Source: a virus (Duplodnaviria > Caudoviricetes). From it: a stretch of DNA of 64,000 nucleotides. The stretch lies in IMG/VR virus record IMGVR_UViG_2882837327_000005, positions 39,211 to 103,210 of that record; one strand, given 5' to 3'. The notes beneath the pieces are model-generated. The model was not told where the DNA came from. It worked only from the letters and a program-made list of their open reading frames with translations, and searched no databases. Position numbers and translations under genes: made by a program. This document shows positions 10,204-61,079 of this stretch, piece after piece. Within the stretch, counting starts at the first letter, position 1. Each line of letters opens with the position of its first letter.

Positions 10204-10216
10204 TAGGCCGCCGCCA

Positions 10217-10411
10217 ATGGCGAGCTATGATCGGCAGATCGAGAAGCTTCTAAAGGACGCTGGATGTCAGTTCGAGCGTCCCGGAAAAGGAAGCCACAGC
10301 ATTTGGCGTAATCCCGCCACCAACCAGACCTTCGCCGTTTCCCATGACGTCAAAACCAAGGGAACGGCAAACAAGATCCTGAAGGACGCTGGCCTGCCCA
10401 AGGCCTTCTGA
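10217..10411 (+). CDS. hicA: HicA family mRNA interferase toxin
   Basis: 64 aa; GKGSH motif; C-term TANKILKDAGL. Confidence 0.9.
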   Translation: MASYDRQIEKLLKDAGCQFERPGKGSHSIWRNPATNQTFAVSHDVKTKGTANKILKDAGLPKAF

Positions 10412-37317: not shown

Positions 37318-37394
37318 TGGATGCGGAAGTTGGATTTGAACCAACGACCTCCTGGTTATGAGCCAGGCGCGCTACCGGACTGCGCTATCCCGCA
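37318..37394 (-). tRNA. Phage tRNA with CAT anticodon (Met-like, atypical identity elements)
   Basis: TGCGGGA-TA-GCGC-AGTCCGGTA-GCGC-G-CCTGG-CTCATAA-CCAGG-AGGTC-GTTGG-TTCAAAT-CCAAC-TTCCGCA-T-CCA cloverleaf. Confidence 0.92.
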
Positions 37395-37497
37395 ATGGCC
37401 CCCGGACGGCGTTTCGATCCCGCCCTCCAGGGTCCTGAGGCACCGGCCGGCTGACCCTCCGACCACCGACCCGCTCCTCATGAACGCAGTCGTAGAA

Positions 37498-37511
37498 CAC
37501 ATTAAAATGTG
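37498..37511. promoter_or_regulatory. Operator palindrome CACAT-N4-ATGTG
   Basis: CACATtaaaATGTG upstream of the tRNA/tmk operon. Confidence 0.7.
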
Positions 37512-37524
37512 CCGTCAATGTGAT

Positions 37525-38598: not shown

Positions 38599-38660
38599 CA
38601 GATCACCCTGTCCATGGCCCTGCGGGTAGCATGCGGCGGCACGCGCCGCCTAGTGTAAAA

Positions 38661-38674
38661 CACATCTAAATGTG
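38661..38674. promoter_or_regulatory. Operator palindrome in the divergent ssb/early region
   Basis: CACATctaaATGTG inside a longer imperfect inverted repeat GTGTAAAA...TTTTTACAC. Confidence 0.75.
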
Positions 38675-38693
38675 TTTTTACACGGTTTTGACC

Positions 38694-38748: not shown

Positions 38749-38810
38749 CCTCAGCCGCGCCATCTCGGTGCGGCGCGCCCAGCCGGCGGCGTGTTTCGCC
38801 GGCGAAGAGG
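38749..38810 (+). ncRNA. Variant type III hammerhead-like element 1 (G3-C8, G15.1-C16.1)
   Basis: CCTC-A-GCCGCGCC(atctc)GGTGCGGC-GCGCCCA-GCCGGCG(gcgtgttt)CGCCGGC-GAA-GAGG. Confidence 0.7.
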
Positions 38811-38818
38811 ACATACCA

Positions 38819-40006
38819 ATGCCCGACACCAACATCATGGACACGAACACCGGCCGCATCGGCGCACGCAGCGTCGATGTCAGCAGGGGCGCCCTGGACG
38901 GCTCTGTGAGCAGCCAGTGGTTCGCCCGGCCCGATGACCAGCGCTTCCTGACCCTCGAAGGCCTCTTGGCCTCCGTGGAGCAGCGCAGAGAGCGCAGCAT
39001 CGTGAACACCCTCGACACCCGTTCCATCGGGGTGCGGGGCAGCAGGGAGGATGAAACCCTCCTGCAGCTCATCACCCCGGACGGGATGATCGCCCCCAAC
39101 AACTGGTCCTTCGGCCAACTCTGCTCCCGCGTTGGCGCGCCTGCGGGCTTCCTGCGCACGCTTCGGCTGGCGCCGGCGGTCCTGCAGGAGCGTCTCGAGC
39201 GCTCGGATGCCGAGCAGCTGAAGTTCATGCGCACCATCAATCCCGACGGGACCGAGGTCGCTGAACTCCGCGCCGTCACCGGCGTGGATTATGGCCGGGT
39301 GTGGGACGAGGAGGTGGTTCGCGCTGTCATGGGCATCGCCAGCGATGGCACCTGGAAGGTTCCGGGCGTCATCAACTGGGGTAAGGGCACCTACGACCCT
39401 TCGGCGCCGGTCAGCAGCGAGAGCACCACGCTCTACGCCTCGGACCGCGACGTGTTCATGTTCCTGTGCCGCGACGAGTACCCGATCGAGGTCGGGAAGC
39501 TCCGCAACGGCGACCCTGACTACATGTTCCCGGGCTTCATCGTCTCCAACTCGGAGACGGGATCCCGGGCGCTGACCATCGAGACGATGTATCTCCGCGC
39601 CGTCTGCATGAACCGCAACCTCTGGGGTGTGGAGAACAAGCAGACCGTCCGGATGCGTCACTCCAAGGGGCTGCCCTCCCGCTTCGCGGCGGAGGCCGGC
39701 CCCACCCTGCGCCAGTTCAGCCAGGCCTCCGCGTCCGCGGTCGCACAGAAGGTGATCGCGGCGAAGGGCACCATCATCGGCAAGGACGATGATGAGGTGA
39801 AGGATTTCATCCGGAAGCAGGACTTCAGCATCAAGTCGACCGAGCAAATCATGGCCTCGGTCTACGGTGAGGAAGGCCATCCGGCCCGGTCCGTGTGGGA
39901 TGTCGTCCAAGGCATCACCGCGAAGGCCCGGGAGATCCGGCACCAGGATGAACGCGTGGACATGGAGCGCAAGGCCGGCGCGCTGATGAACAGGATCAAG
40001 GTCTGA
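38819..40006 (+). CDS. DUF932-like protein
   Basis: VSSQWFARPDDQRFL, TTLYASDRDVF, NSETG, VCMNRNLWG; ATG follows GAGGA of element 1. Confidence 0.75.
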   Translation: MPDTNIMDTNTGRIGARSVDVSRGALDGSVSSQWFARPDDQRFLTLEGLLASVEQRRERSIVNTLDTRSIGVRGSREDETLLQLITPDGMIAPNNWSFGQLCSRVGAPAGFLRTLRLAPAVLQERLERSDAEQLKFMRTINPDGTEVAELRAVTGVDYGRVWDEEVVRAVMGIASDGTWKVPGVINWGKGTYDPSAPVSSESTTLYASDRDVFMFLCRDEYPIEVGKLRNGDPDYMFPGFIVSNSETGSRALTIETMYLRAVCMNRNLWGVENKQTVRMRHSKGLPSRFAAEAGPTLRQFSQASASAVAQKVIAAKGTIIGKDDDEVKDFIRKQDFSIKSTEQIMASVYGEEGHPARSVWDVVQGITAKAREIRHQDERVDMERKAGALMNRIKV

Positions 40007-40040
40007 CACCCGGGCCCGGGGGCTTCACAGCTCCCGGGCC

Positions 40041-40102
40041 TTTCTCGTCACCCCATCACGGGGTGGCCCGCCGAGCGCCCCCGGATCGGGGCGCGAAAGG
40101 AA
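40041..40102 (+). ncRNA. Hammerhead-like element 2 (C3-G8, A15.1-U16.1, CUC triplet)
   Basis: TTTCT-C-GTCACCCC(atcac)GGGGTGGC-CCGCCGA-GCGCCCC(cggatc)GGGGCGC-GAA-AGGAA. Confidence 0.75.
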
Positions 40103-40109
40103 TGCGACA

Positions 40110-40445
40110 ATGCAAACCGAACAGGAAACACCCGCGGCACCGGCAGAGCCGGAGACCGAGGCGAACCCCTACCGGTTCGAAATGAGCTTCCAGCCCGCAC
40201 AGGCAGCCATCTATCTGCTCGCTCGGGTCGCCGATGGCGATTTCGTCGATTGCATCGAGGCCCGCGAGGCTCTCGCCCGCTGGAAGAGCTGTCTCGCCAC
40301 GGAAGCCAACGCCGACGCCATCGAACAGCTGTCCTCCGACGAGGTGGAGTTCGACGACCATGGCGTTGCCGTGGTCGAGGCCGACGGCGGCTACTGGATA
40401 CAGGGCTGGCTGTGGGTTGAGCAGGAGGCTGAGAATGCCGACTGA
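40110..40445 (+). CDS. Hypothetical acidic early protein
   Basis: 111 aa directly after element 2. Confidence 0.65.
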   Translation: MQTEQETPAAPAEPETEANPYRFEMSFQPAQAAIYLLARVADGDFVDCIEAREALARWKSCLATEANADAIEQLSSDEVEFDDHGVAVVEADGGYWIQGWLWVEQEAENAD

Positions 40446-40689
40446 CCTCACCGCCGAATGCCTGGCTGGCTACGACGCCCCGAAGGGCGCGGCCTGCCCC
40501 TATATGTTCAGCAGTTCATCCTGGCTCGCCTGGATGGCTGGCAGGCGGGTTGCCGGAATGTCCCGACCCACCGCGTGCCGATCCAGCCGCGGTTACTCCG
40601 TCCGCATTAAAACCGCTGGCGGCTCTCAGGTACTCGTCGCCTTCGCGGGCCCGGACCTCACCGAGATCACGATGGACCGGGCGCCATGA
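40435..40689 (+). CDS. Hypothetical protein
   Basis: AGGAGG RBS; MPTDLTAEC... Confidence 0.55.
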   Translation: MPTDLTAECLAGYDAPKGAACPYMFSSSSWLAWMAGRRVAGMSRPTACRSSRGYSVRIKTAGGSQVLVAFAGPDLTEITMDRAP

Positions 40690-40880
40690 AACGCGCCGAC
40701 GCCCTCAATGCGATCCGCGCCGCCGGCGCACAAGGCGACCAGCAAGCGTTCATGCGGCTCTACGTCGAGAACCGCGTCAGCAAAAGTGCGGCTGACGCTG
40801 CCTGGCGGGAGGGCCAGAATCTGGCCCGCTTCGTCAAACAGCGCGACGCCAAGGAGGTGTCTCGTGACCCAGTCGCCTGA
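40686..40880 (+). CDS. Hypothetical protein
   Basis: 64 aa, coupled (ATGA). Confidence 0.55.
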   Translation: MKRADALNAIRAAGAQGDQQAFMRLYVENRVSKSAADAAWREGQNLARFVKQRDAKEVSRDPVA

Positions 40881-41079
40881 CCTCTCCACCGTCGCCACCC
40901 GCACCCCGGCCACGACCTGGGACGGGAAGCACGACGTGCTCCCCTCCGCCCGGGCCCAGTTCCGGGGCAGCGATGTCCCGCCTGAGGCCTTCCGCGCTCC
41001 TGCCAACTTTGCGGCCAACGCCGCACTGGTCGGCCTGTGGAAGATCATCGGCGACTTCACGGTCCGGCACCGCCGCTGA
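40864..41079 (+). CDS. Hypothetical protein
   Basis: AAGGAGGT RBS before GTG 40864. Confidence 0.45.
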   Translation: MTQSPDLSTVATRTPATTWDGKHDVLPSARAQFRGSDVPPEAFRAPANFAANAALVGLWKIIGDFTVRHRR

Positions 41080-41085
41080 CGTGAA

Positions 41086-41337
41086 ATGACGAGGCCCCCT
41101 ATAGAGGTGCGCGTCACCCCATGGGTCAACGTCGAAGGAAACCCGCTCTGGCATGGCTCGCGTATCGCGGCTTACCGGATCTGGATCGAGTTCGACGGAC
41201 GCCACTGGTACCAGTGCCATGAGTGGGAAAACCGCCACGGCAACCGGGAGCGGTGGACCGACAGCTGGATCAACGGTCTCCGTGGCTTTCCGCCACATGC
41301 GACCGTCCCAGCCGCCAGCGATCCCCCGCCACCATAA
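41086..41337 (+). CDS. Hypothetical Trp-rich protein
   Basis: 83 aa; stop directly before a hairpin and element 3. Confidence 0.45.
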   Translation: MTRPPIEVRVTPWVNVEGNPLWHGSRIAAYRIWIEFDGRHWYQCHEWENRHGNRERWTDSWINGLRGFPPHATVPAASDPPPP

Positions 41338-41359
41338 CCGCCGCCCCTCCGGGGGCGGC

Positions 41360-41423
41360 TCCTCCGTCGCCCCATCCTGGGGCGGCGCGCCCAGCCGGCG
41401 GCGTGTCTCGCCGGCGAAGAGGA
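41360..41423 (+). ncRNA. Hammerhead-like element 3 (G3-C8)
   Basis: TCCTC-C-GTCGCCCC(atcct)GGGGCGGC-GCGCCCA-GCCGGCG(gcgtgtct)CGCCGGC-GAA-GAGGA. Confidence 0.7.
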
Positions 41424-41431
41424 ACACCACC

Positions 41432-41857
41432 ATGCCGATCGCGAAGCGGTGCAGAAAATGCACAGGTTCGAATTGCGGTGCGGAAGCCACAGCAAATTGG
41501 GATGTCGAGAGCCAAAGCTGGGTCCTGGGCACGCTCCACACCAACACCTGGTGTGACGCCTGCGAATACGATGACCCCGGTCTGGTCGATGTCGAAGTCA
41601 GCGAGAACCTGGTCGAGGACTTCCAGCTCGAGATCTGGCGCGGCGACGACAACGAAGGGCCCATCACCCGCATCGTTGTTGCCTGCGTGCTGTTCGACCC
41701 GGAGGAAGCTGGCATCTCCTGCCCGAAGCACGTCTTCGAGGAGGAAGCCGACATCACCCGGCTGCTGACCATCGCCCGACAGAGCGAGCGCAGCGACCCG
41801 TTCGACGACAAGCTCCCCAGCGACGAAGCCATCATCACGGCCGCGCTGAACCTCTGA
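41432..41857 (+). CDS. Zinc-ribbon hypothetical protein
   Basis: CRKC...WCDAC; ATG after element 3 RBS. Confidence 0.65.
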   Translation: MPIAKRCRKCTGSNCGAEATANWDVESQSWVLGTLHTNTWCDACEYDDPGLVDVEVSENLVEDFQLEIWRGDDNEGPITRIVVACVLFDPEEAGISCPKHVFEEEADITRLLTIARQSERSDPFDDKLPSDEAIITAALNL

Positions 41858-41881
41858 CCTGGGGCGGCCCTGCGCCGCCCC

Positions 41882-41939
41882 CCTCGTCGCCCCATCATGG
41901 GGTGGCCCGCCGAGCACCCCCGGATTGGGGTGCGAAAGG
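41882..41939 (+). ncRNA. Hammerhead-like element 4 (C3-G8)
   Basis: CCT-C-GTCGCCCC(atcat)GGGGTGGC-CCGCCGA-GCACCCC(cggatt)GGGGTGC-GAA-AGG. Confidence 0.75.
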
Positions 41940-41948
41940 ACCGAACCT

Positions 41949-43100
41949 ATGTTCGACAACGCTTTCAAGGACAATATCGTCGGCGCCGTGAGCTGCGATG
42001 CGCAGTTCCTCCGGGCGGCCTTGGATAAGGCCTTCCTGGCGGTGAATGCGAAGCTGAAGGTCCCTGCCCTGCACCATGTGCTGGTCAGGAACGACAAGCT
42101 CTACGCCACCGACATGGAGATGATGATCTTCGTCGATCTGCCCCCGGGCAGCTGCTCCGGCTCCGCGTTCCTGACTGACCCCGAGCGCCTCCTCGCCATC
42201 CTCAAGACTGCGGATGGCCGCATCACGGTCGAGGGCCGACGCCAGGATGTGAAGGACGGCGACGCCATCTGCTCCATCTTGGTGCGGGCCGGCGATGCGT
42301 CGATCTGGTCACCCAGTTGCCCGGTGGAAGACTTCCCGGCGCTCGATCGTCTCAAGGAGGCGAAGGAGCGACTTACCCTCACGGCCGAGCAACTCGCGCT
42401 CGCCTTCAGCTGCGTCGCCCCGGCGATCAGCACTGAGGCAACCCGCTACTATCTGAACGGCATCTGCTTCGACATGAGGAGCGAGCCGGCGGGATTCACG
42501 ATGGCGGCCACCGATGGCCACCGTCTCGCGACCTTCGACTTCCCTGTCGAGCCCAAGGTCGCCATGAAGCCCATCATCCCGAAGCTGGCCATCACGTCGC
42601 TGCAGAAGCTGCTCAAGGGCAGCCGCAGCGACGTGCTGCTGAAGATCGGCGACACAAGGGCAGAGTTCTCCTCTGCCGACTGGGCGCTGACGACGAAGCT
42701 CATCGACGGCAGCTTCCCCGAATACGGTCGGGTGGCTGCCACCAGCTTGGAAAGCAAGGGCACGGCCAATTGGGTCGTGTCCGCTGACAAGGCGGCCTTC
42801 GCCAGCACGCTGGCAAGGGTCCATATCCAGGGAAAAAGCGCCCCGGTGAAGCTCACCTCGTCCGGCGAGCTGGTCAGCGGCAATCAGGTTGATGGCCAGG
42901 CCAGCGCGCCCATCTCCGGCGCTCTTATCACGGGCGTCCCTCAGGATGTGGGCTTCAATGGGAAGTACTTCGCCGAGGCGCTGAAGAGCGCCCCGGGCGA
43001 CCGTATCTCCCTTTTCTTCCAGGATCCGGGTGGGCCCTTCTTGCTGAAGGTGCCCGGCCGGGATGACTGGAGCACTACGCTCATGCCCCTGCGGTTGTGA
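41949..43100 (+). CDS. dnaN: Phage-encoded DNA polymerase III beta clamp homologue
   Basis: ATDME, STEATRYYLNG, ATDGHRL, LIDGSFPEY, GFNGKYF, LMPLRL. Confidence 0.9.
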   Translation: MFDNAFKDNIVGAVSCDAQFLRAALDKAFLAVNAKLKVPALHHVLVRNDKLYATDMEMMIFVDLPPGSCSGSAFLTDPERLLAILKTADGRITVEGRRQDVKDGDAICSILVRAGDASIWSPSCPVEDFPALDRLKEAKERLTLTAEQLALAFSCVAPAISTEATRYYLNGICFDMRSEPAGFTMAATDGHRLATFDFPVEPKVAMKPIIPKLAITSLQKLLKGSRSDVLLKIGDTRAEFSSADWALTTKLIDGSFPEYGRVAATSLESKGTANWVVSADKAAFASTLARVHIQGKSAPVKLTSSGELVSGNQVDGQASAPISGALITGVPQDVGFNGKYFAEALKSAPGDRISLFFQDPGGPFLLKVPGRDDWSTTLMPLRL

Positions 43101-43128
43101 GCAACCGGCCGAGGGTCATCCCTCGGCC

Positions 43129-43185
43129 TCTCGTCGCCCCATCGCGGGGCGGCCCGCCGAGCGCCCCCGGATGGGGCGCGAAAGG
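43129..43185 (+). ncRNA. Hammerhead-like element 5 (C3-G8)
   Basis: TCT-C-GTCGCCCC(atcgc)GGGGCGGC-CCGCCGA-GCGCCCC(cggat)GGGGCGC-GAA-AGG. Confidence 0.72.
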
Positions 43186-43193
43186 ACAACCCC

Positions 43194-43697
43194 ATGCATC
43201 TTTCCGATGCCATCGCACTTGCGGTCGCGCAGCTGAAGGCTGAGCGCGAAATCGCGGTGGGCTGCTACTTCGCCCCCGGCGCATCCAGGGACGACCTGAG
43301 CAGCCTCGACGACACGGAGCGCGAGCATCTGGCCGGTCTCAATGCCGCTATCAGCGCGCTGGAAACGGCGTGGCCGGTGGCGGTCGAGAAGATCTCGGCC
43401 GGCGCCCACGCCATTGCTAGCCTGGCCGAGAGCCGGCTGGAGGACATGCACGCCGACGCCGAAAGCCGCCACGAGAAGCAGATTTTCCGCTGCACGAACT
43501 ATGTGGCCGCAATCGACCGCGTGCGCGAGTTTCGCGCGGGGCTGGAGCACGTCATGCCCGACCCGCCGCTCTGGGACTACGATGTCCGGGACAGCCTTCG
43601 GCACCATGCCGAGGAACACGGCGTCGACCTGGAAGCAGCGATGACCGCTCACAGCGACACGGGTGAATGCCCGTGCTGCGCCAATCCATCAAAATAG
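43194..43697 (+). CDS. Hypothetical early protein
   Basis: 167 aa after element 5; C-term CPCC. Confidence 0.65.
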   Translation: MHLSDAIALAVAQLKAEREIAVGCYFAPGASRDDLSSLDDTEREHLAGLNAAISALETAWPVAVEKISAGAHAIASLAESRLEDMHADAESRHEKQIFRCTNYVAAIDRVREFRAGLEHVMPDPPLWDYDVRDSLRHHAEEHGVDLEAAMTAHSDTGECPCCANPSK

Positions 43698-43717
43698 GAT
43701 CAAGAACCTATTTATAG

Positions 43718-43746
43718 TTGCAATCGTAGGTATTTATTGGTAATAT
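43718..43746 (+). promoter_or_regulatory. Sigma70-like promoter
   Basis: TTGCAA-17 nt-TAATAT in an AT-rich patch. Confidence 0.55.
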
Positions 43747-43793
43747 TACTTTGTTGGTGAGGAATTAACTTCATCGACATTGGAGAAATACCA

Positions 43794-44021
43794 ATGAAGA
43801 TCGCACTTCCGGCCATTGTGGTATTGGTCGTGGCGGCTTCCCCGCCGGTCGCGCCGGCTCCGATCAAGAGCCTGGACGCGCTGATGGACGAGTTTTCCTC
43901 CGAGTTGGAGAAGCTCGCCCAGATCGAGGACGACGATGCCTTCATGCAAGCCGTCCTCAGCTACCTCTCCCCGCTGCCCGGTCCGCCGGCCAGCTTGGGG
44001 GTGCCCATCTACCCGATGTAG
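43794..44021 (+). CDS. Small protein with signal-peptide-like N-terminus
   Basis: GGAG RBS, MKIALPAIVVLVVAA. Confidence 0.55.
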   Translation: MKIALPAIVVLVVAASPPVAPAPIKSLDALMDEFSSELEKLAQIEDDDAFMQAVLSYLSPLPGPPASLGVPIYPM

Positions 44022-44047
44022 CGCCCCACCGCCCAGCTACTGGGCGG

Positions 44048-44109
44048 TCCTCCGTCACCCATCATGGGTGGCGCGCTCAGCCGGCGGCGCGTTTCGTCGG
44101 CGAAGAGGA
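44048..44109 (+). ncRNA. Hammerhead-like element 6 (G3-C8)
   Basis: TCCTC-C-GTCACCC(atcat)GGGTGGC-GCGCTCA-GCCGGCG(gcgcgttt)CGTCGGC-GAA-GAGGA. Confidence 0.7.
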
Positions 44110-44119
44110 ACCCCACCCT

Positions 44120-44242
44120 ATGGCACCCATCGCCATCCGCCTGGCCGGCATTGTCGGCCGTGCTGTCTGCGCCGCGGCCATCGCCGTCATTGTGACCCGC
44201 AGCAGCCCCGCCCGCCGGCTGGCGCGGCGCGACAACACCTGA
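44120..44242 (+). CDS. 40-aa hydrophobic/basic peptide (not in ORF track)
   Basis: MAPIAIRLAGIVGRAVCAAAIAVIVTRSSPARRLARRDNT; ATG after element 6 RBS. Confidence 0.5.
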   Translation: MAPIAIRLAGIVGRAVCAAAIAVIVTRSSPARRLARRDNT

Positions 44243-44396
44243 TCGAAGCCGCCTCGGGCGGCTGCCGCCCTCCCCCAGGGTGGCCCGTTGAGACAGGGCC
44301 TGGGCACTTCCCTACCCCAACCCAGGATAGACCCATCAGCGGCAACTGAGGGCCTTGCCGGCGCATGCACCCCCGTGCGCCTGGTAGGGCCCTCCC

Positions 44397-44457
44397 CGTC
44401 CGCGGCGCTCACGACGAGCGCCGCCCGCCGACGCCCCCGGTTGAGGGGCAGAAGACG
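44397..44457 (+). ncRNA. Hammerhead-like element 7 (sequence-divergent; C3-G8 with G15.1-C16.1)
   Basis: CGTC-C-GCGGCGCTC(acgac)GAGCGCCGC-CCGCCGA-cGCCCC(cggttga)GGGGCa-GAA-GACG; C-A mismatch at the base of stem II. Confidence 0.55.
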
Positions 44458-44482
44458 CCCCGATCCGGGGATGGAGACATTC

Positions 44483-44773
44483 ATGGAACTCGTTCATGAC
44501 CTGATCGACCCTCGAGAGGTATATTCTCACATCGAGGATGACCGGGTTCGAGAAGCGTGCATCTACGGCCGCCGCAGTGATTACATCACCGTGCACCGGC
44601 AGCGCACGCGCCTGTATGACGCCAGCATCGCCCATCAGAGGCGGCTGGCGAACGATCCGAGAGTTACGGTTGAGGAGCGGCGCATGCTCCTGGAATACAC
44701 CCACTTCCTGCGGAATAATCTGCATGATCCGGACCTGTTCCTGCAGTTCTTGCGCCTCTTCTGGTTGACCTGA
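44483..44773 (+). CDS. Hypothetical protein
   Basis: GGAG RBS; MELVHDLID..., 96 aa. Confidence 0.6.
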   Translation: MELVHDLIDPREVYSHIEDDRVREACIYGRRSDYITVHRQRTRLYDASIAHQRRLANDPRVTVEERRMLLEYTHFLRNNLHDPDLFLQFLRLFWLT

Positions 44774-44801
44774 CTACCCCGCCCGGCCCCCTCCACCGGG
44801 C

Positions 44802-44858
44802 GGCCTCAGCCACCCCCACGGGTGGCGCGTTCAGCGCGGACCACTGCGCGAAGAGGCC
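44802..44858 (+). ncRNA. Hammerhead-like element 8 (G3-C8, U6)
   Basis: GGCCTC-A-GCCACCC(ccac)GGGTGGC-GCGTTCA-GCGCG(gaccac)TGCGC-GAA-GAGGCC. Confidence 0.65.
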
Positions 44859-45085
44859 TACCAGCGAACTCGAGCTGGCGTCGCTCCCCTATACTATTCC
44901 ATCACCAGGGTGAGTTCGGAGCCACCGGCCCCCTGCCCCAGCGAGGCAGGCGCCGCCGCGCACCGTAGCGCGCGGAGAAGGAAAGTCGCCTCGTTCTGGG
45001 CAGCCCGCATCCGTCGTGGACGGTCGCTCTGCAGAAAGCCCTGGAACCGCCGCTTGGCCGCGGCGCGCGAACGAGATCAATTGCC

Positions 45086-45122
45086 ATAGCCCCTGAGACC
45101 AGCCCGGTCTCAGGGGCTATTT
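45086..45122. terminator. Terminator hairpin between the early array and the convergent repressor gene
   Basis: Perfect 15-bp stem ATAGCCCCTGAGACC/GGTCTCAGGGGCTAT. Confidence 0.75.
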
Positions 45123-45872
45123 GTCTTCCAGGATGCTCGCCATGACGACGCGGCCCCGGATCTGGACGCGCATGCCCTCGCTGTCCCACCAGCCGCCGTC
45201 ATAGGGCCACTGCTTCATGGCGATCTGGCCGACATGCGCCTTGTTGTGGGAAGCGAAGACCAGCTTAACGCCGCCGTCGTCTTCCACCTGGATCTGGCGC
45301 ACCGTGACCTCGTGCTTCCCGCTGTCGTTCTTGCGGTGGACCAGCACCCGGTCGCCGTTGGCCAGCGGCCTGACGCCGGGCGTGCCGAAGCCCACGATCG
45401 CGACCACCGTGCCCGGGTGGTAGAAGCCGTTGGCGTGGTCGTCGGTGACGAGGACTGCCTCATCGATCTCGAGCGGCGGCGGGATGGCGAAGTTCTCGTC
45501 GGCACGGCCTGGCACCTCATAGCGCGGCCGCCACTGGCCCGAGGCGGCCTGCACCGTGACGGGAATCACCAGCGCCTGGCGCGAGCTGATGGGCGCCTCG
45601 CCCATGATCTCCGCGACCGTGGCGTTTGCGGCCTTGGCAAGCCGATCCAGCGTGCTGAGGCTCAGCATGCGGGTGTGGCCGTTCAGGAAGTTGTAGATGG
45701 CATTGGGCGTCGGAAGCCCGGCCTCCGTAGCCCAAGATGTTGGTGTGCGATCAGTTTCCGCCATGAAGGTTCGGAGAGCTTTCCGCTTCGCATCGCTGCG
45801 GTCCTCACGCTCCACGCGCGCCGCCGCCTTGCCGCGGGGTTGACGCCCGCTCATCTCGCCGCCAATTGCCAT
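45117..45872 (-). CDS. CI-like prophage repressor (start may be 45854)
   Basis: XRE-like HTH (WATEAGLPTPNAIYNFLNG) plus S24-like C-domain; divergent from a cro-like gene. Confidence 0.75.
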   Translation of the reverse strand: MAIGGEMSGRQPRGKAAARVEREDRSDAKRKALRTFMAETDRTPTSWATEAGLPTPNAIYNFLNGHTRMLSLSTLDRLAKAANATVAEIMGEAPISSRQALVIPVTVQAASGQWRPRYEVPGRADENFAIPPPLEIDEAVLVTDDHANGFYHPGTVVAIVGFGTPGVRPLANGDRVLVHRKNDSGKHEVTVRQIQVEDDGGVKLVFASHNKAHVGQIAMKQWPYDGGWWDSEGMRVQIRGRVVMASILEDK

Positions 45873-45880
45873 GTGTTTTC

Positions 45881-45894
45881 CACATAAAAATGTG
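45881..45894. promoter_or_regulatory. Operator palindrome at the cI/cro junction
   Basis: CACATaaaaATGTG. Confidence 0.75.
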
Positions 45895-45907
45895 ATAGAC
45901 CGGTGTG

Positions 45908-46183
45908 ATGCGACGCAATACCCCGACCGTCAGCGCCCTGCTGAAGCAGCTGGAGGACGAAGCCCTTGCAAGGGGCCTGTCCCGAGCCGAGCTCGCCGCC
46001 CAGGCCAACCTGCACGTCAACACCCTGCGGGGCTTCGGCCAGCAGAACGAGCCGCGACGGGGCGCGGGACGCACTCGCGTCAGGGAGCATCACTGGAATC
46101 CCACGCTGTCTACCATCCTGGCCATCGAGTCCGTATTGGTCCGAAAAGTGGTTCCGTCCTCTAAACCTGTGGTTAAAGCATAA
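45908..46183 (+). CDS. Cro-like HTH regulator
   Basis: GLSRAELAAQANLHVNTLR...WNPTLSTI. Confidence 0.7.
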   Translation: MRRNTPTVSALLKQLEDEALARGLSRAELAAQANLHVNTLRGFGQQNEPRRGAGRTRVREHHWNPTLSTILAIESVLVRKVVPSSKPVVKA

Positions 46184-46187
46184 CTCT

Positions 46188-46718
46188 GTGTCGGGTCCAG
46201 TCCGATTCAAGACAGGAGCCACTTTTCAGCCGCCCGGCGCGCCCGCGGCGCCGCGCCGGAAGCGTTCCTGGAACCGCCATCCTGAATCGGTGATGCAGTC
46301 GAACTGCGTGGAGATCTTCGACCGCGCGGTGCCGGCCGGCACTGCCTTCCTCTACGCGGTGCCGAACGGCGGGCGCCGCGACGGCCTCACAGGCGCCATC
46401 CTGAAGGCCGAGGGTGTGCGGGCCGGCGTGGCCGACCTGGTGCTGATGCTGCCCCGTGGCCGCAGCGTCTACATCGAGATGAAGGTGGGCGGCGGCCAGA
46501 GCATCAGCGGCGTGAAGGTGGCCAAGGGCTACCAGAGCGATACCCAGCAGGGCTTCCAGGCCACCGTGGAAGCCCTGGGCTTCCGCTACGTCATCTGCCG
46601 CTCGGAGGCGGAGTTCGAGGCGCTGCTGATCGAGGAGGGCGTGCCGCTGCGGTTCCGCACGCATGTCGCGGCACGCTCCTCGGCCAAGCCGAGAAGCTCA
46701 TCGGCCGAGATGTCGTAG
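46188..46718 (+). CDS. VRR-NUC domain nuclease
   Basis: AVPNGG, GVRAGVADL, IEMK, QS..Q..F; start uncertain. Confidence 0.8.
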   Translation: MSGPVRFKTGATFQPPGAPAAPRRKRSWNRHPESVMQSNCVEIFDRAVPAGTAFLYAVPNGGRRDGLTGAILKAEGVRAGVADLVLMLPRGRSVYIEMKVGGGQSISGVKVAKGYQSDTQQGFQATVEALGFRYVICRSEAEFEALLIEEGVPLRFRTHVAARSSAKPRSSSAEMS

Positions 46719-46900
46719 ATCTCGCACAGGCGCCGGGTCTGCCAGGCGCTGGGCATGGTGCGTCCATCCTCCACCTTCCACATGGCGACATAGCTGATCC
46801 CCAGGGCGGAGCCGACCTCCTTGAGGGACAGACCGCGCTTCTCGCGCAGCGCCCGTATCCTCGCGGCCAGTTCCGGCCAGGGGCTGCGTTTCGTGCTCAT
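46586..46900 (-). CDS. XRE family HTH regulator
   Basis: IRALREKRGLSLKEVG..LGIS....KVEDG..MPS. Confidence 0.8.
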   Translation of the reverse strand: MSTKRSPWPELAARIRALREKRGLSLKEVGSALGISYVAMWKVEDGRTMPSAWQTRRLCEIYDISADELLGLAEERAATCVRNRSGTPSSISSASNSASERQMT

Positions 46901-48105
46901 GCCGCGTCTCCTTCGTCTGCTGCTGGTGCCGCCGCCGCGCGCGCCATGAAGCGCTCGAAGCTGGCCATGTCCGGGAAGCCGTAGGGGAGAACCTCGGTGC
47001 CAAGGTGAGGCTGCAGCACCTTGGCGACGCGCCGCAAGACGGCCGGGTCACGCTCCCCATCGAGATCCTTCGGCCACCACCCCTCGTACTCGGCCGCCGC
47101 GGCGACCTTCATGGCCTTCTGGATCGCCGCCCGCTGCTTGGGGGTCACGTCCCAGTTGCCGGTCTGCTTGGGCGCACCAGGCGGCAGCGCCTTCTCGGCT
47201 GCATGGGCGGCGAGCACTGCCCTCCGGAAGTAGCTGAAGCTCCCAGGGGCATCGCCGCCGAATGCGAGCTTCGACGCCGTCAACTCGCGGACAACCCGCT
47301 CAGCCGTGACCTCGCTGACGCCCTGGCTGAGCCAGTTGATGACCTCCCGGAAATTGTAGCCACCTGTGCCAGGGAAGCCCGCAATCCTCGCCAGCTTCTC
47401 CCCCAACACCGCTCCCCTTGCGGCCATCGCAGCAGCGGATTCAGGCTCCGGCCCTGGTGCCTCGCGCGCGGATAGTGATTCCCCTTCGGAGTCCTGAGGG
47501 GGTTGGTTAGGAGTTATCTTAAGGGGAGATATACCTACGCGCGCGTTGGAGCCCCGGTGGGCTTCTCCGTGGGATACGTTTTGGGTTTCGGTGGCTTTTC
47601 GGTGGGTATCGCCGTGGGATACGTTTTGGGTATCCGTGGGAATTGATTGGGTATCGGTGGGTTTCCCGTTTGGGTATCGGTGGGTTTCCGCTGTGTGAGC
47701 CACCGCCACCGTCCGATCTGACACGAGCCGCAACGCCGGCCGCGCGGGCGATCCATCTTTGCGAGGCCTCCCGCCCAGTTTGGCATTCGCACGCTGGGCG
47801 GCGAGCTTCCGCTCGCTGATGCCGTGGAACACCTCCACGCGATAGCGGCCGCCCTCGTCTCGGTGCAGCACCTCGGCATCCCAAAGCACCTTGCCAGCGG
47901 CATGCACTTCCGAGAGCAGGCACCCTGCCAGTTTGGCCATCGCCTCACGCGGCTCGGCGCCTTCCGGCAGCGGCAGCCAGCCGTCACCATCGGCAGCCAG
48001 GGCCAGCGACAGCCAGAGGCTGCGCGCCGCCAGCGGCAGCGCCCGCAGCGCGGCCTCCGAAGACAGCCGGGCTACCAAGGCCTGAGGGGAATTCGCGCGG
48101 GCCAT
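46897..48105 (-). CDS. Phage replication initiator protein
   Basis: Directly downstream of dnaB; LAARSLW N-term, ANAKLGGRP, internal DNA repeats, SFSYF C-domain. Confidence 0.65.
   Translation of the reverse strand: MARANSPQALVARLSSEAALRALPLAARSLWLSLALAADGDGWLPLPEGAEPREAMAKLAGCLLSEVHAAGKVLWDAEVLHRDEGGRYRVEVFHGISERKLAAQRANAKLGGRPRKDGSPARPALRLVSDRTVAVAHTAETHRYPNGKPTDTQSIPTDTQNVSHGDTHRKATETQNVSHGEAHRGSNARVGISPLKITPNQPPQDSEGESLSAREAPGPEPESAAAMAARGAVLGEKLARIAGFPGTGGYNFREVINWLSQGVSEVTAERVVRELTASKLAFGGDAPGSFSYFRRAVLAAHAAEKALPPGAPKQTGNWDVTPKQRAAIQKAMKVAAAAEYEGWWPKDLDGERDPAVLRRVAKVLQPHLGTEVLPYGFPDMASFERFMARAAAAPAADEGDAA
47555..47690. repeat. Iteron-like direct repeats (putative phage ori)
   Basis: CCGTGGGATACGTTTTGGGT at 47567 and 47612; TTGGGTATCGGTGGGTTTCC at 47647 and 47670. 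Confidence 0.7.
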
Positions 48106-49625
48106 CAGCCATCATCCTCTGGCAGGTCGAAGAAGGCTGTCGTCGTGTCCTCGAAGCCGACGGTCTGCTCGAAGGTCTTGCCCTGGCGGCTTTTCGGGCA
48201 GGAGATCAGGGCCTTGCCCTTCGCATCATCCCGCCGGATGCGCCATTCCGAATGGCGTAGCTGAAAGGCCGCATCGTCCTCGTTCAGCTTCCGGAGCGGC
48301 TCATTCCGCAGCAGGTAGTAGTGCTCGCGGTACAAGAACATGATGACGTCGGCGTCCTGCTCGATGGTCCCGGATTCACGCAGGTCCGACATCTGGAGGC
48401 GCTTCTCCTCGCGGCTGTCGACGCCACGGTTGACCTGGCTCAGGGCGACCACGGGCACTTTCAGATCCTTGGCCAGCCGCTTGATGGCCCGGGTGATCTC
48501 GCCGATCGCTTCCGTGCGGCTGGCGGCCTTCTTTCCACCGATCGAAGGCGGCTCGGCCAGCTGCAGGTAGTCGATGAAAATGGCGTCGAGGCCGCCAGCC
48601 CGCTGAAACTGCCTGGCGCGTGAACGGATAGCCGCGATGGAGGAGCCCGCCTGCTGGTCCCAGTGGATTCCCATTGCGCGGAGCCGCCGGGCAGCATCCT
48701 CGACTGCGATTTGATCCTTCCGGCTGCTCTTGAGGCTGCGTCGGCTCCCATCCTGGAACTCGATATAGCCGTCGATGATGAGCTCCGCCGGCAGCCCGGA
48801 TTCCTGCGCGACCATGCGCTGGTATGTCTCGATCGCGTCCATTTCCAGGTTCGCGAAGTAAACTCGCTTTCCAGCGAGGCCGAGATTGCGCGCCATCGTC
48901 GCGCCAAGCGCGCTCTTACCAGCGCTGGATGGGGCCGCGATCACGTAAACCCGGGTCGGCCGCAGCCCACCGAGCCTCCGGTCCAGAGAGCGGATGCCAG
49001 TCGAGAGCCCGACTACCTCCCCGGGCTCGAGCCTCATTACCGCGGCAATGTGGCTCATGAACTGGTCATAGACCTGCGAATTGGTCAGCTGGTTCTCCGC
49101 GCCCGCTTGCTGCGCGCCCAGCTGAACCACGGACGTGTCGAGCCCATCCAGGATCTCGCGCGCGGTGGGCCCATGGGGGTCATAGGCCGCCGCCGCGGCC
49201 AACTCGCACGCCTCGATGGTCTCTCGCCGAAGCGCCATGTCGACCACGATGCCAGCGTATTCTCGGATGTTCACCGCGCCCACCGTCGCGCTCAGCAGCG
49301 TGGCGAGGTAGCGGGCGCCACCGACATCCTCCAGGCCCTGCTCCGCCTCGAACAGACCCTTCAAAGTGATCGCGTCGGCAGCCTTTCCGGCGCGGATGCG
49401 GTCAGCGATGGCTGCGTAGATCCGCGCGTGGGCGGCGTCGGCGAAGTGGTGGGCCTCCAGGATGTCGCCCACCCGGTCGAAGGCCCGGTTGTTCTGGAGA
49501 AGACCGCCCAGGACGGCCTGTTCGGCCTCCATACTGGCTGGCGGAAGGCGTAGCCCAAGCGTTGAGCCCGTAGGCTGGGAGGCATTTCCGAGAAGCGCGG
49601 CCCCAGGTCGCTGCTGCAGTGACAT
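48105..49625 (-). CDS. dnaB: Replicative DNA helicase
   Basis: EAEQAVLGGLL, APSSAGKS, IDYLQL, LSQVNR, SDLRESGTIEQDAD. Confidence 0.95.
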   Translation of the reverse strand: MSLQQRPGAALLGNASQPTGSTLGLRLPPASMEAEQAVLGGLLQNNRAFDRVGDILEAHHFADAAHARIYAAIADRIRAGKAADAITLKGLFEAEQGLEDVGGARYLATLLSATVGAVNIREYAGIVVDMALRRETIEACELAAAAAYDPHGPTAREILDGLDTSVVQLGAQQAGAENQLTNSQVYDQFMSHIAAVMRLEPGEVVGLSTGIRSLDRRLGGLRPTRVYVIAAPSSAGKSALGATMARNLGLAGKRVYFANLEMDAIETYQRMVAQESGLPAELIIDGYIEFQDGSRRSLKSSRKDQIAVEDAARRLRAMGIHWDQQAGSSIAAIRSRARQFQRAGGLDAIFIDYLQLAEPPSIGGKKAASRTEAIGEITRAIKRLAKDLKVPVVALSQVNRGVDSREEKRLQMSDLRESGTIEQDADVIMFLYREHYYLLRNEPLRKLNEDDAAFQLRHSEWRIRRDDAKGKALISCPKSRQGKTFEQTVGFEDTTTAFFDLPEDDG

Positions 49626-49870
49626 GCGATTGAAATTCCCCGAAATCCAAGCGCTTTTGTTGGACAGCCGAGGTCGTCGCGGCTAAGGTTTGAGCGCGCC
49701 ATCCCCGTTGGCGCCCACGCTGGCGGCACCACTGCCGCCGGATCGAACGCCTCCGCCGGCCAGGGCGGGGGCGTTTTCGCTTCCGACCCCCAGACCATAC
49801 GCACCGCCTCTGATCGTCACAAGGCGAATCTCGAAATGCTGTGCATTCCGTGTGTTAACTCGTGGTATTT

Positions 49871-49884
49871 CACATTGTAATGTG
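49871..49884. promoter_or_regulatory. Operator palindrome
   Basis: CACATtgtaATGTG between divergent dnaB and MTase genes. Confidence 0.7.
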
Positions 49885-49988
49885 TTATTGTTTTCTCAAG
49901 CCCTGGTAGGCTGACCGCACCTAGATCGCAAAATCTTGTGCCTGGAAGGCGTACCAAGGGCCGGGGCGGGAAGTTTGCCCTCCACCAC

Positions 49989-50052
49989 TCCTCCGTCACC
50001 CCATCGCGGGGTGGCGCGCTCAGCCGGCGGCGCGTCTCGCCGGCGAAGAGGA
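49989..50052 (+). ncRNA. Hammerhead-like element 9 (G3-C8)
   Basis: TCCTC-C-GTCACCCC(atcgc)GGGGTGGC-GCGCTCA-GCCGGCG(gcgcgtct)CGCCGGC-GAA-GAGGA. Confidence 0.7.
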
Positions 50053-50059
50053 CCGAATC

Positions 50060-50803
50060 ATGAACTCCGATTCAATCCGTGACGTGCTGGAAACCAGCTC
50101 CTTCAACGGGGCCAACCTGGTCCTGCCCGGCACGCTCACGCGTTCGGAATACCAGGCGGTAAACAAGGCCATCGAGGCCGCTGGCGGCAAGTGGGATAAG
50201 AAGGCCCGGGCGCACGTCTTCCCGAGGGATGCGCGCCAGGCTCTGGCGCCGGTACTCGCCGGGAGCGACCTGACCAAGCCACCGTCCCGGAAGAAAGAGC
50301 TTCAAGCCTTCTTCTCACCGCCCGGCGTGGTGGAGCGCGTTATCTCCCGCGCCGCCATCGGCCGGAGGGATCTGGTGCTGGAGCCCTCTGCCGGCCACGG
50401 CGCCTTGGCGCTTGCCGCGCAGGCAGCCGGCGGCCGGGTCGAGTGTTGCGACATCGACAGCGACCACGTCGACGAGCTCCGCCGTCTCGGGCTCAACGCC
50501 AGGATCTACGACTTCCTGAAACTGGCCCCGAACCCCGCTTATGACCGGGTGGTGATGAACCCTCCGTTCCGCAACCTGCAGGACGTGGATCACGTCACCC
50601 ATGCCCTCGGGTTTCTGAAGACCGGCTGCAGCCGCCTGGTGGCGGTGATGTCGCCAGGCTTCCAGTATCGGCAGACCAGGAAGGCGAAGGCCTTCAGAGA
50701 ACTGCTGGCGAGCCGTAACAGCCTCGTGGAGACCTTGCCCGAGCAAAGCTTCAAGATCGCAGGCACCAGTGTTTCAACGCTGCTCGTGACCATCACGGGC
50801 TGA
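50060..50803 (+). CDS. Amino (N6A/N4C-type) methyltransferase
   Basis: VLEPSAGHG (motif I) and VMNPPF (motif IV). Confidence 0.85.
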   Translation: MNSDSIRDVLETSSFNGANLVLPGTLTRSEYQAVNKAIEAAGGKWDKKARAHVFPRDARQALAPVLAGSDLTKPPSRKKELQAFFSPPGVVERVISRAAIGRRDLVLEPSAGHGALALAAQAAGGRVECCDIDSDHVDELRRLGLNARIYDFLKLAPNPAYDRVVMNPPFRNLQDVDHVTHALGFLKTGCSRLVAVMSPGFQYRQTRKAKAFRELLASRNSLVETLPEQSFKIAGTSVSTLLVTITG

Positions 50804-50829
50804 ACTTCCGCCCGGCCTTGGCCGGGCGG

Positions 50830-50892
50830 CCCTCCGTCGCCCCGATGCGGGCGGCGCGCTCAGCCGGCGGCGCGTTTCGTCGGCGAAGAGGG
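50830..50892 (+). ncRNA. Hammerhead-like element 10 (G3-C8)
   Basis: CCCTC-C-GTCGCCC(cgatgc)GGGCGGC-GCGCTCA-GCCGGCG(gcgcgttt)CGTCGGC-GAA-GAGGG. Confidence 0.7.
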
Positions 50893-50900
50893 AATACCCA

Positions 50901-51789: not shown

Positions 51790-51818
51790 TTGCAATCCAC
51801 ATTTCAATGTGTTTTTGT
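51790..51818 (+). promoter_or_regulatory. Promoter-like TTGCAA with operator palindrome (51798-51811) in the spacer
   Basis: TTGCAAtc-CACATttcaATGTG upstream of the recombination operon. Confidence 0.65.

Positions 51819-61004: not shown

Positions 61005-61079
<75 letters not shown>

What the first reader, a model, noticed from the sequence alone, without database searches (positions are those of the whole stretch)
40011..50900. Hairpin-ribozyme-RBS cassette: Shine-Dalgarno locked in stem III
Seen: in eight of ten copies the 3' strand of stem III is the purine-rich RBS (GAGGA/AGGA) just before the next ATG (38819, 40110, 41432, 41949, 43194, 44120, 50060, 50901), and the 5' strand is an anti-SD. 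A GC-rich hairpin sits between the upstream stop codon and the element (e.g. 41340, 41860, 43107, 44028, 44779, 50808). Inference: cleavage would release the short anti-SD strand and switch on translation, leave the upstream mRNA with a protective 3' hairpin, and give the downstream mRNA a structured 5'-OH end, a poor substrate for 5'-monophosphate-dependent RNase E. This would be a natural counterpart of engineered ribozyme translation switches. The repeats could also act as homology for shuffling gene cassettes.
Basis: partly seen in the sequence, partly recalled or inferred. Interest (0 to 1): 0.85.

Follow-up and report, generated by a model that had tools for sequence, protein, structure and literature searches.

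The report
Hammerhead-like RNA modules masking phage ribosome sites
Ten copies of a roughly 60-base RNA three-way junction, built like a hammerhead self-cutting ribozyme but with an unusual core, sit between the early genes of a prophage. Each pairs the next gene's ribosome-binding site into one of its stems; whether they really cut themselves is untested.

Summary
The window has ten copies of a 55-64 nt element, all on the + strand (38749-50893), in two early operons of a prophage. The host's nearest relative with copies is labelled Rhodovarius.

- **Start sites:** eight copies lie 6-9 nt before an ATG.
- **Stem pairing:** their closing stem pairs CCUC (anti-SD) with GAGG/AGGA (the SD).
- **Upstream hairpin:** seven copies are preceded by a GC hairpin that abuts the element.
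- **Relatives:** a related Rhodovarius prophage has 20 more copies. Across 29 copies all three helices covary (99% of cells paired against 76% in shuffles).

The junction has hammerhead geometry: 7-, 3- and 1-nt strands, invariant G5, A9, G10.1-C11.1 and G12A13A14, a 3-8 pair seen as G-C or C-G, and C or A at the cleavage position.

It departs from the hammerhead consensus at U4 (always C), A6 (always C or U) and usually 15.1-16.1 (G-C). Rfam does not detect it.

I read it as a divergent hammerhead-derived intercistronic module. Self-cleavage, and therefore the proposed translation switch, is plausible but unproven. Published mutagenesis argues against fast Mg-dependent cleavage.

Earlier notes of this scan report canonical hammerheads carrying ribosome sites in other phages. 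The new part here is the variant core.

The parts
38749..38812 (+). Copy 1 (type A), first element of operon 1. P1 is CCUC/GAGG, position 17 is A38753, the core strand is GCGCCCA, and the ATG is at 38819 (DUF932-like gene).
   Evidence: CM 85-90 bits; fold; Pfam hit for the gene
40012..40041 (+). GC hairpin after the stop codon of the DUF932-like gene, abutting copy 2.
   Evidence: -28.5 kcal/mol for the 42 nt upstream, 0 nt from P1
40042..40103 (+). Copy 2 (type B). Position 17 is C40046, the core strand is CCGCCGA, GAA is followed by AGGAA, and the ATG is at 40110.
   Evidence: CM 66 bits; alignment
41340..41359 (+). GC hairpin before copy 3.
41361..41424 (+). Copy 3 (type A). Position 17 is C41365, the core strand is GCGCCCA, and the ATG is at 41432.
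   Evidence: CM 88-92 bits; the minimum-energy fold is the three-way junction
41861..41881 (+). GC hairpin before copy 4.
41882..41941 (+). Copy 4 (type B). P1 is CCU/AGG, position 17 is C41885, the core strand is CCGCCGA, and the ATG is at 41949 (sliding-clamp-like gene).
   Evidence: CM 65 bits; Pfam DNA_pol3_beta domains
43109..43126 (+). GC hairpin before copy 5.
43127..43187 (+). Copy 5 (type B). Position 17 is C43132, the core strand is CCGCCGA, and the ATG is at 43194.
   Evidence: CM 65 bits
44028..44048 (+). GC hairpin before copy 6.
44049..44110 (+). Copy 6 (type A). Position 17 is C44053, the core strand is GCGCUCA, and the ATG is at 44120 (40-codon ORF).
   Evidence: CM 77-82 bits
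44397..44459 (+). Copy 7, divergent. P1 is CGUC/GACG (not an SD), position 17 is C44401, and the core strand is CCGCCGA. A separate GGAG precedes the ATG at 44483.
   Evidence: CM 25 bits, E 5e-4; read by eye
44779..44803 (+). GC hairpin before copy 8.
44804..44858 (+). Copy 8, last of operon 1. P1 is CCUC/GAGG, position 17 is A44808, and the core strand is GCGUUCA. No start codon follows.
   Evidence: CM 47 bits
45086..45120 (+). Intrinsic terminator (15-bp stem followed by a T run) that ends operon 1.
49990..50053 (+). Copy 9 (type A), first element of operon 2. Position 17 is C49994, the core strand is GCGCUCA, and the ATG is at 50060 (methyltransferase-like gene).
   Evidence: CM 88-91 bits; Pfam weak MTS hit
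50808..50829 (+). GC hairpin before copy 10.
50831..50893 (+). Copy 10 (type A). Position 17 is C50835, the core strand is GCGCUCA, and the ATG is at 50901.
   Evidence: CM 74-82 bits

Best explanation
Each element is an RNA module that punctuates two polycistronic early phage transcripts.

**What is shown**
- It folds into a three-way junction that descends from, or is built like, a type III hammerhead ribozyme.
- Stem III is a short helix between an anti-SD (CCUC) and the next gene's SD (GAGG).
- Stems I and II are stable hairpins of 7-9 bp.
- The junction strands are [G/C]-C-G-Y-N-[C/G]-A, then GAA, then a single C or A.

**What I infer**
- The RNA cleaves itself after that single C or A. 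Cleavage is probably slow or conditional, for instance favoured by Mn2+ as in the natural C6 hammerhead of phage Bcep176.
- The upstream message would then end in its GC hairpin plus CCUCC with a 2',3'-cyclic phosphate. That end should resist 3' exonucleases.
- The downstream message would begin with a 5'-OH directly in stem I, with no single-stranded 5' end. That is a poor entry site for RNase E.
- The 4-bp stem III would fall apart and free the SD.

The net effect would be one transcript converted into separately stabilised and separately translated cistrons. The same module marks cassette boundaries, between which gene content differs in related phages.
For: **Structure**
- Across 29 copies from two prophages, 99.3% of cells form pairs, against 76% in shuffles and 44-53% in slid controls.
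- 17 of 20 pairs show changes on both sides.
- Frequent U-G pairs in stem I (14 of 29 at one position) place the structure on the sense strand.

**Hammerhead geometry and core**
- The junction strands are 7, 3 and 1 nt long.
- G5, A9, G10.1-C11.1 and G12-A13-A14 are invariant in 29 of 29 copies.
- Position 7 is free (U, C or A), as in hammerheads.
- Positions 3 and 8 are G-C in 24 copies and C-G in 5, with no mismatch. This matches the C3-G8 pair, whose swap keeps activity (PMC9901934).
- Position 17 is C in 19 copies and A in 10, never G.
- The three type B copies differ from CUGANGA / GAA / A15.1-U16.1 / H17 only at U4C and A6C.

**Precedent**
- Clustered hammerheads flank single genes in prophages and cleave in vitro and in vivo (PMC3088659).
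- A natural A6C hammerhead is active and prefers Mn2+ (PMC7151607).
- A U4C viroid hammerhead remains viable (PMC3088659).

**Selection on the core**
- The stems have diverged into many different sequences while the junction letters stay fixed.

**SD link**
- All 26 copies with an adjacent ATG have a purine-rich P1 3' strand.
- Three of the four copies without an adjacent ATG keep the helix but with non-SD letters.
- The modelled SD unpaired probability is 0.31 before and 0.55 after removal of the 5' strand.

**Hairpin**
- It is present 0-1 nt before P1 in 25 of 30 copies. It is absent from the four operon-first copies and weaker (-13.5 kcal/mol) before one internal copy.

**One transcript**
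- There are no promoter-like or terminator-like sites at the cassette boundaries, and one strong terminator at 45086-45120.
Against: **The core breaks consensus at functionally important positions.**
- C4 and Y6 occur in 29 of 29 copies.
- 15.1-16.1 is G-C in 24 of 29 aligned copies, and also in the weak tenth window copy.
- Comprehensive single and double mutagenesis of a type III hammerhead found low activity for every change in the CUGA turn except the C3G/G8C swap, with no rescue (PMC9901934).
- A6C alone lowers Mg-dependent rates by orders of magnitude (PMC7151607).

**Rfam reports no hammerhead**, even in a 600-nt search at E up to 10. This weighs little, because the proven Bcep176 hammerhead is also missed.

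**No loop I to loop II Watson-Crick contact** stands out from shuffles.

**SD masking is modest** in the folding model, and nil for type B copies.

**Narrow distribution.** The family was found in only two prophages of one genus, so the conservation partly reflects duplication and perhaps gene conversion.
Confidence: 0.45

Rival explanations
1. The element is a non-catalytic structured leader. It is either a former hammerhead or a convergent three-way junction that no longer cleaves. It acts as a fixed translation attenuator or insulator: it holds the SD in a short helix, gives every cistron the same local context, and, together with the upstream hairpin, blocks exonucleases and translational read-across between cistrons.
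For: - SD/anti-SD pairing is maintained and covaries.
- Core changes at positions 4, 6 and 15.1-16.1 are of the kind that abolish activity in mutagenesis (PMC9901934).
- Rfam finds no hammerhead.
- No loop-loop pseudoknot signal was seen.
Against: - A purely structural junction does not need invariant G5, A9, G10.1-C11.1 and GAA, a single non-G nucleotide at position 17, and a covarying 3-8 pair. These are exactly the hammerhead catalytic set.
- The stems drift freely while these letters do not.
- A 3-5 bp helix is a weak attenuator: the SD is still 31% unpaired in the model.
Confidence: 0.3
2. The element is a processing site cut by a protein. A host or phage endoribonuclease would recognise the hairpin plus three-way junction and cut between cistrons, as RNase III does between the early genes of phage T7.
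For: - The conserved junction letters could be a protein recognition surface.
- The hairpin stacked on P1 and stem I gives a long quasi-continuous helix.
- The operons hold many small genes of unknown function.
Against: - No nuclease candidate was identified.
- The match to hammerhead strand lengths and core letters would then be a coincidence.
- The helices are shorter than typical RNase III substrates (established knowledge, not tested here).
Confidence: 0.12
3. The element is a ligand- or ion-sensing switch that does not cleave. The junction would bind a metal ion or small molecule, and its folding would tune SD access for a whole set of early genes at once.
For: - The junction is invariant while the stems vary.
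- The SD lies in the closing helix, as in many riboswitch expression platforms.
- The A9/G10.1 site of hammerheads is a known divalent-metal site (PMC7151607).
Against: - No alternative (antiterminator-like or anti-anti-SD) pairing was seen.
- Ten copies in front of unrelated genes is unusual for a riboswitch.
- No Rfam riboswitch match was found.
Confidence: 0.06
4. The feature acts only at the DNA level. The repeats would be recombination linkers or a small selfish repeat that spreads between genes, with no RNA function.
For: - The conserved unit extends from the stop codon (TGAC-YA-CCCCGCC...) to the start codon.
- The two prophages share the elements but only one of the genes that follow them.
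- Subfamilies with the same stem II occur within one phage.
Against: - Compensatory changes with G-U pairs, a strict single orientation on the coding strand, and the fixed SD-to-ATG spacing all point to selection on the RNA.
- Recombination may well be an added consequence rather than the function.
Confidence: 0.04

Closest known systems
Clustered hammerhead ribozymes that flank single genes in prophages (Agrobacterium tumefaciens, Azorhizobium caulinodans, Clostridium scindens; Perreault et al. 2011, PMC3088659)
   Same: - Many copies lie in one phage operon, between genes.
- The fold is a three-way junction with 7/3/1-nt junction strands, GAA, the 3-8 pair and a non-G cleavage-site nucleotide.
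- The proposed role is processing of polycistronic RNA.
   Different: - The core reads [G/C]CGYN[C/G]A instead of CUGANGA.
- 15.1-16.1 is mostly G-C.
- Rfam models do not detect it.
- Activity is untested.
- The SD is built into stem III, and a hairpin abuts every internal copy.
Natural C6 hammerhead of Burkholderia phage Bcep176 (PMC3088659, PMC7151607)
   Same: - It is a phage intergenic hammerhead with a pyrimidine at position 6.
- It is also invisible to Rfam in my searches.
- It shows that such cores can still cleave, with a preference for Mn2+.
   Different: - Bcep176 is type II, a single copy, and keeps U4 and A15.1-U16.1.
- It lies at the end of an operon, not before a start codon.
Engineered hammerhead devices in bacteria that mask an RBS in a ribozyme stem or insulate a 5' UTR (aptazyme riboswitches, RiboJ); recalled from the literature, not read here
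   Same: The logic is the same: the SD is paired inside a ribozyme helix or behind a ribozyme, and cleavage removes the upstream RNA and exposes the SD.
   Different: Those devices are synthetic, use consensus cores and are single units. This one is natural, multi-copy and of unproven activity.
RNase III processing sites between the early genes of phage T7 (established knowledge, not tested here)
   Same: Intercistronic structured sites cut one long early transcript into messages whose 3' ends are protected by a hairpin.
   Different: In T7 a host protein does the cutting at long hairpins. Here the structure is hammerhead-like and would act on itself.
Self-cleaving ribozymes in the 5' UTRs of fungal and plant RNA viruses that are required for translation initiation (PMC13725137)
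   Same: Ribozyme cleavage just upstream of a coding region is tied to translation of that region.
   Different: That is eukaryotic cap-independent translation in RNA viruses, with consensus type I hammerheads and no SD pairing.

Membership tests
Hammerhead ribozyme | Three helices around a junction whose single strands are 7 nt (I to II), 3 nt (II to III) and 1 nt (III to I) | tested here: met
   This holds in 27 of 29 aligned copies. One has an extra U beside position 17 and one an extra G after A9. All three helices covary.
Hammerhead ribozyme | Core strand C3-U4-G5-A6-N7-G8-A9 | tested here: not met
   G5, A9 and a free N7 are met in 29 of 29 copies. Position 4 is C in 29 of 29 and position 6 is C (11) or U (18). 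Positions 3 and 8 are swapped to G and C in 24 of 29.
Hammerhead ribozyme | C3-G8 form a Watson-Crick pair that can covary | tested here: met
   G-C in 24 copies, C-G in 5, no mismatch. The swap is active in vitro (PMC9901934).
Hammerhead ribozyme | G12-A13-A14 between stems II and III | tested here: met
   GAA in 29 of 29 copies, and in the weak tenth copy by eye.
Hammerhead ribozyme | A15.1-U16.1 pair next to the core | tested here: not met
   A-U in 5 of 30 copies (the three type B copies, L031:2254-2313 and L032:10167-10222). The rest have G-C.
Hammerhead ribozyme | Cleavage-site nucleotide 17 is unpaired and not G | tested here: met
   C in 19 copies and A in 10.
Hammerhead ribozyme | Match to the Rfam hammerhead covariance models (RF00008, RF00163, RF02275-7) | tested here: not met
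   No hit at the gathering score, or at E up to 10 in 15 kb or 600 nt. None in the relative's contigs. The test is weak, because the experimentally active Bcep176 hammerhead is also missed.
Hammerhead ribozyme | Tertiary contact between stems I and II (loop-loop or pseudoknot) | tested here: inconclusive
   Watson-Crick complementarity between the loops is no better than in shuffles. Non-canonical contacts cannot be assessed.
Hammerhead ribozyme | Site-specific self-cleavage giving 2',3'-cyclic phosphate and 5'-OH ends | not testable with these tools
Hairpin ribozyme (one possible reading of the finding's title) | Two internal loops A and B in adjacent helices, with N*GUC facing AGAA | tested here: not met
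   The element is a three-way junction with no internal loops. The GUC after position 17 is paired inside stem I and varies to GCC and GCU with its partner. The title more likely means the module order: hairpin, then ribozyme, then RBS.

The most novel reading that the evidence does not exclude
These elements would be an unrecognised, catalytically competent hammerhead subclass with a rewired U-turn: C4, pyrimidine 6, usually G3-C8 and G15.1-C16.1. Its cleavage might be metal-selective. It would serve as a natural ribozyme-RBS switch that turns one early phage transcript into separately stabilised, translation-ready cistrons. That would give a concrete, testable function for bacterial and phage hammerheads.
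Probability: 0.3. Interest if true: 0.8.

Novelty: new variant of a known kind. Interest (0 to 1): 0.6.

Why it matters
The function of bacterial and phage hammerheads is still described as unclear (PMC6765202, PMC7151607).

This locus offers 30 natural copies in which the next gene's SD is one strand of stem III, and in which the upstream message gets its own terminal hairpin. That makes a specific prediction that reporters and end-mapping can test.

The core combination (C4, Y6, swapped 3-8, G-C at 15.1-16.1) is conserved under clear selection but lies outside what the standard models detect.
- If it is active, the known sequence space of the hammerhead active site is wider than thought, and searches are missing family members.
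- If it is inactive, it would be an example of a ribozyme fold kept for a non-catalytic role.

Tried and rejected
- **Hairpin-ribozyme reading.** Rejected: there are no loops A and B, and the GUC is paired.
- **Rfam.** Searches at the gathering score and at E up to 10 on the window, on a 600-nt piece and on the relative's contigs found nothing relevant.
- **Wider distribution.**
  - Pattern scans of viral contigs, of one genome per species and of metagenome contigs gave only chance matches once re-scored with the model or inspected. The exception was the Rhodovarius MAG.
  - Model searches of 150 relatives and 150 genomes of the class gave only that MAG plus weak single hits that look like chance.
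- **Neighbour-gene approach.** DUF932 homologues in 48 of 400 genomes of the family carry neither this element nor an Rfam hammerhead within 1.5 kb.
- **Other look-ups.**
  - The clamp-like protein has no relative in viral contigs.
  - No cultured phage shares the region.
  - Canonical type III hammerheads were not found above the cut-off in 150 genomes of the family.
- **Loop I to loop II pseudoknot.** No signal.
- **Intrinsic-terminator reading of the upstream hairpins.** Rejected: no T run follows them.
Full report
**1. What is there**

Direct-repeat search, folding and a covariance model agree on ten copies of a 55-64 nt element. All are on the + strand, at 38749, 40042, 41361, 41882, 43127, 44049, 44397 (weak), 44804, 49990 and 50831. 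Searching the whole 5.28-Mb genome with the model found no copy elsewhere, although only a subset of first-look candidates was scored.

The copies lie in two + strand operons of a prophage:
- The operons sit among replication genes: SSB and DnaB on the - strand, a YqaJ-like exonuclease, a clamp-like protein and a DUF932-like protein.
- Each operon starts after a copy of a conserved palindrome, at 38654 and 49864.
- Operon 1 ends at a strong terminator at 45086-45120. No promoter-like or terminator-like sites mark the individual cassettes.

**2. Structure**

The element is a three-way junction:
- **P1:** 3-5 bp, CCUC with GAGG in most copies.
- **Then one unpaired C or A.**
- **P2:** a 7-9 bp hairpin.
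- **Then a 7-nt strand.**
- **P3:** a 5-8 bp hairpin.
- **Then GAA, and the P1 3' strand.**

A second prophage supplies 20 more copies, all on one strand of contigs L031 and L032. It sits in a MAG of the same genus, labelled 'uncultured Rhodovarius sp.'.

On the 29 strong copies:
- 99.3% of cells are paired, against 76% in shuffles and 44-53% when the partners are slid.
- 17 of 20 pairs have changes on both sides.

The alignment was fitted to the model, and many copies are paralogues, so cells overstate the number of events. Even so, there are about a dozen different P2 sequences and eight or more different P3 sequences. U-G pairs are common in P2, so the structure belongs to the sense strand, most simply the mRNA.

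**3. The SD link**

- 26 of 30 copies have an ATG 2-9 nt after the model end. Their P1 3' strands are GAGG (20), AGGA (4), GGAC (1) and GGAA (1).
- Of the four copies without an adjacent start, three keep P1 with unrelated letters: GGUC/GACC, GGGU/ACCC and CGUC/GACG.

So P1 is selected as a helix in its own right. Where a gene follows, the SD is used as one strand and the complementary anti-SD is kept opposite it.

In a nearest-neighbour model the SD is 31% unpaired in the intact RNA and 55% unpaired once the RNA 5' of stem I is removed. The three type B copies show no change. The mask is real but partial.

**4. The hairpin**

A GC hairpin of -17 to -28 kcal/mol ends 0-1 nt before P1 in 25 of 30 copies. 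It is absent from the four operon-first copies, and one internal copy has a weaker one. Its stems also differ between copies with compensation. None has a T run. This fits a structure that serves the 3' end of the upstream cistron.

**5. What it resembles**

The junction has hammerhead type III geometry (7, 3 and 1 nt). Its letters are as follows:

| Position | Letters in 29 copies |
|---|---|
| 3 | G 24, C 5 |
| 4 | C 29 |
| 5 | G 29 |
| 6 | C 11, U 18 |
| 7 | U 19, C 8, A 2 |
| 8 | C 24, G 5 |
| 9 | A 29 |
| 10.1-11.1 | G-C 29 |
| 12-14 | GAA 29 |
| 17 | C 19, A 10 |

- Positions 3 and 8 always pair, like the hammerhead C3-G8 pair. The G/C swap is the one core change that keeps activity in comprehensive mutagenesis (PMC9901934).
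- The free position coincides with hammerhead N7.
- The type B copies differ from the consensus only at U4C and A6C.
- A rough, after-the-fact estimate for nine or more matches at eleven fixed core positions by chance is about 1e-4, before counting the matching strand lengths.

I therefore regard hammerhead ancestry, or a very close convergence, as likely.

- C4 and Y6 are universal, and 15.1-16.1 is G-C in 25 of 30 copies.
- The same mutagenesis study found low activity for all other single and double changes in the CUGA turn, with no rescue (PMC9901934).
- A6C alone slows Mg-dependent cleavage by orders of magnitude, though it stays active with Mn2+: 0.3 per min at 1 mM for the natural Bcep176 C6 hammerhead (PMC7151607).
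- A U4C viroid hammerhead is weakened in vitro yet viable (PMC3088659).
- Rfam finds no hammerhead here. However, it also misses the proven Bcep176 hammerhead, which I located at about 12150-12240 of L191. The negative result carries little weight.
- No RNA data could be obtained.

**7. Distribution and cassettes**

The family was found only in the two Rhodovarius prophages. It is not tied to the DUF932 gene, whose homologues elsewhere lack it.

The two prophages share flanking replication genes and the overall layout. Of the genes that follow an element, however, only DUF932 is shared, at 66% identity. The conserved unit runs from the stop codon to the start codon.

**8. Reading**

- **Most likely (0.45):**
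- **Main rival (0.30):** the fold is kept without catalysis, as an RBS-masking and insulating leader.
- **Lesser rivals:** protein-mediated processing (0.12), ion or ligand sensing without cleavage (0.06), and a DNA-only role (0.04).

**9. Known context**

Clustered prophage hammerheads and their presumed role in processing polycistronic RNA were described in 2011 (PMC3088659). The function is still called unclear (PMC6765202).

Earlier notes of this scan, which are unchecked AI notes, report canonical hammerheads whose stems carry the SD in other phages. The arrangement is therefore not unique to this window. What is new here is the conserved variant core and the regular hairpin, junction and SD module.

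Noticed in passing
window 29440-30795 (-): An intact RtcB RNA ligase gene (Pfam RtcB, E 2e-64) lies in the same prophage. RtcB joins 2',3'-cyclic-phosphate (or 3'-phosphate) ends to 5'-OH ends, which are the ends a hammerhead leaves. It could equally serve tRNA repair, since the window also has two tRNA genes (37321-37394 and 61008-61079, - strand).
   Followed up: partly
window 44262-44340 (+): A decayed eleventh copy. The stem I hairpin (GCCGCCCU...AGGGUGGC) and the core strand CCGUUGA are kept. The P1 5' strand and the GAA are missing, and stem II is replaced or expanded. It lies in the 230-nt gap before copy 7.
   Followed up: partly
window 37491-37516, 38654-38679, 45874-45899, 49864-49889, 51791-51816: A 26-nt family with a CACAT-N5-ATGTG palindrome lies in the intergenic regions where operons diverge or begin. 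It is probably a shared operator or promoter element of the early and replication region.
   Followed up: no
window 44859-45085 (+): About 230 nt lie between the last element (no start codon after it) and the operon terminator. If the element cleaves, this piece would be released as a separate small RNA. Only weak ORFs are present there.
   Followed up: no
L032 (reverse strand) 10167-10222 and 10046-10106: In the related prophage, two elements stand in tandem about 60 nt apart, with non-SD closing stems and no start codon after either. They are possibly a leader or an excised mini-RNA.
   Followed up: no
L191 (Bcep176) about 12150-12240 (+): The published, experimentally active C6 hammerhead of phage Bcep176 is not reported by the Rfam hammerhead models, even in a 400-nt search at E up to 10. 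Rfam scans are blind to at least some natural core variants.
   Followed up: yes
window 47555-47644 (+ coordinates): A tandem 45-nt direct repeat (82% identity) lies inside the 402-codon - strand ORF of unknown family next to DnaB.
   Followed up: no
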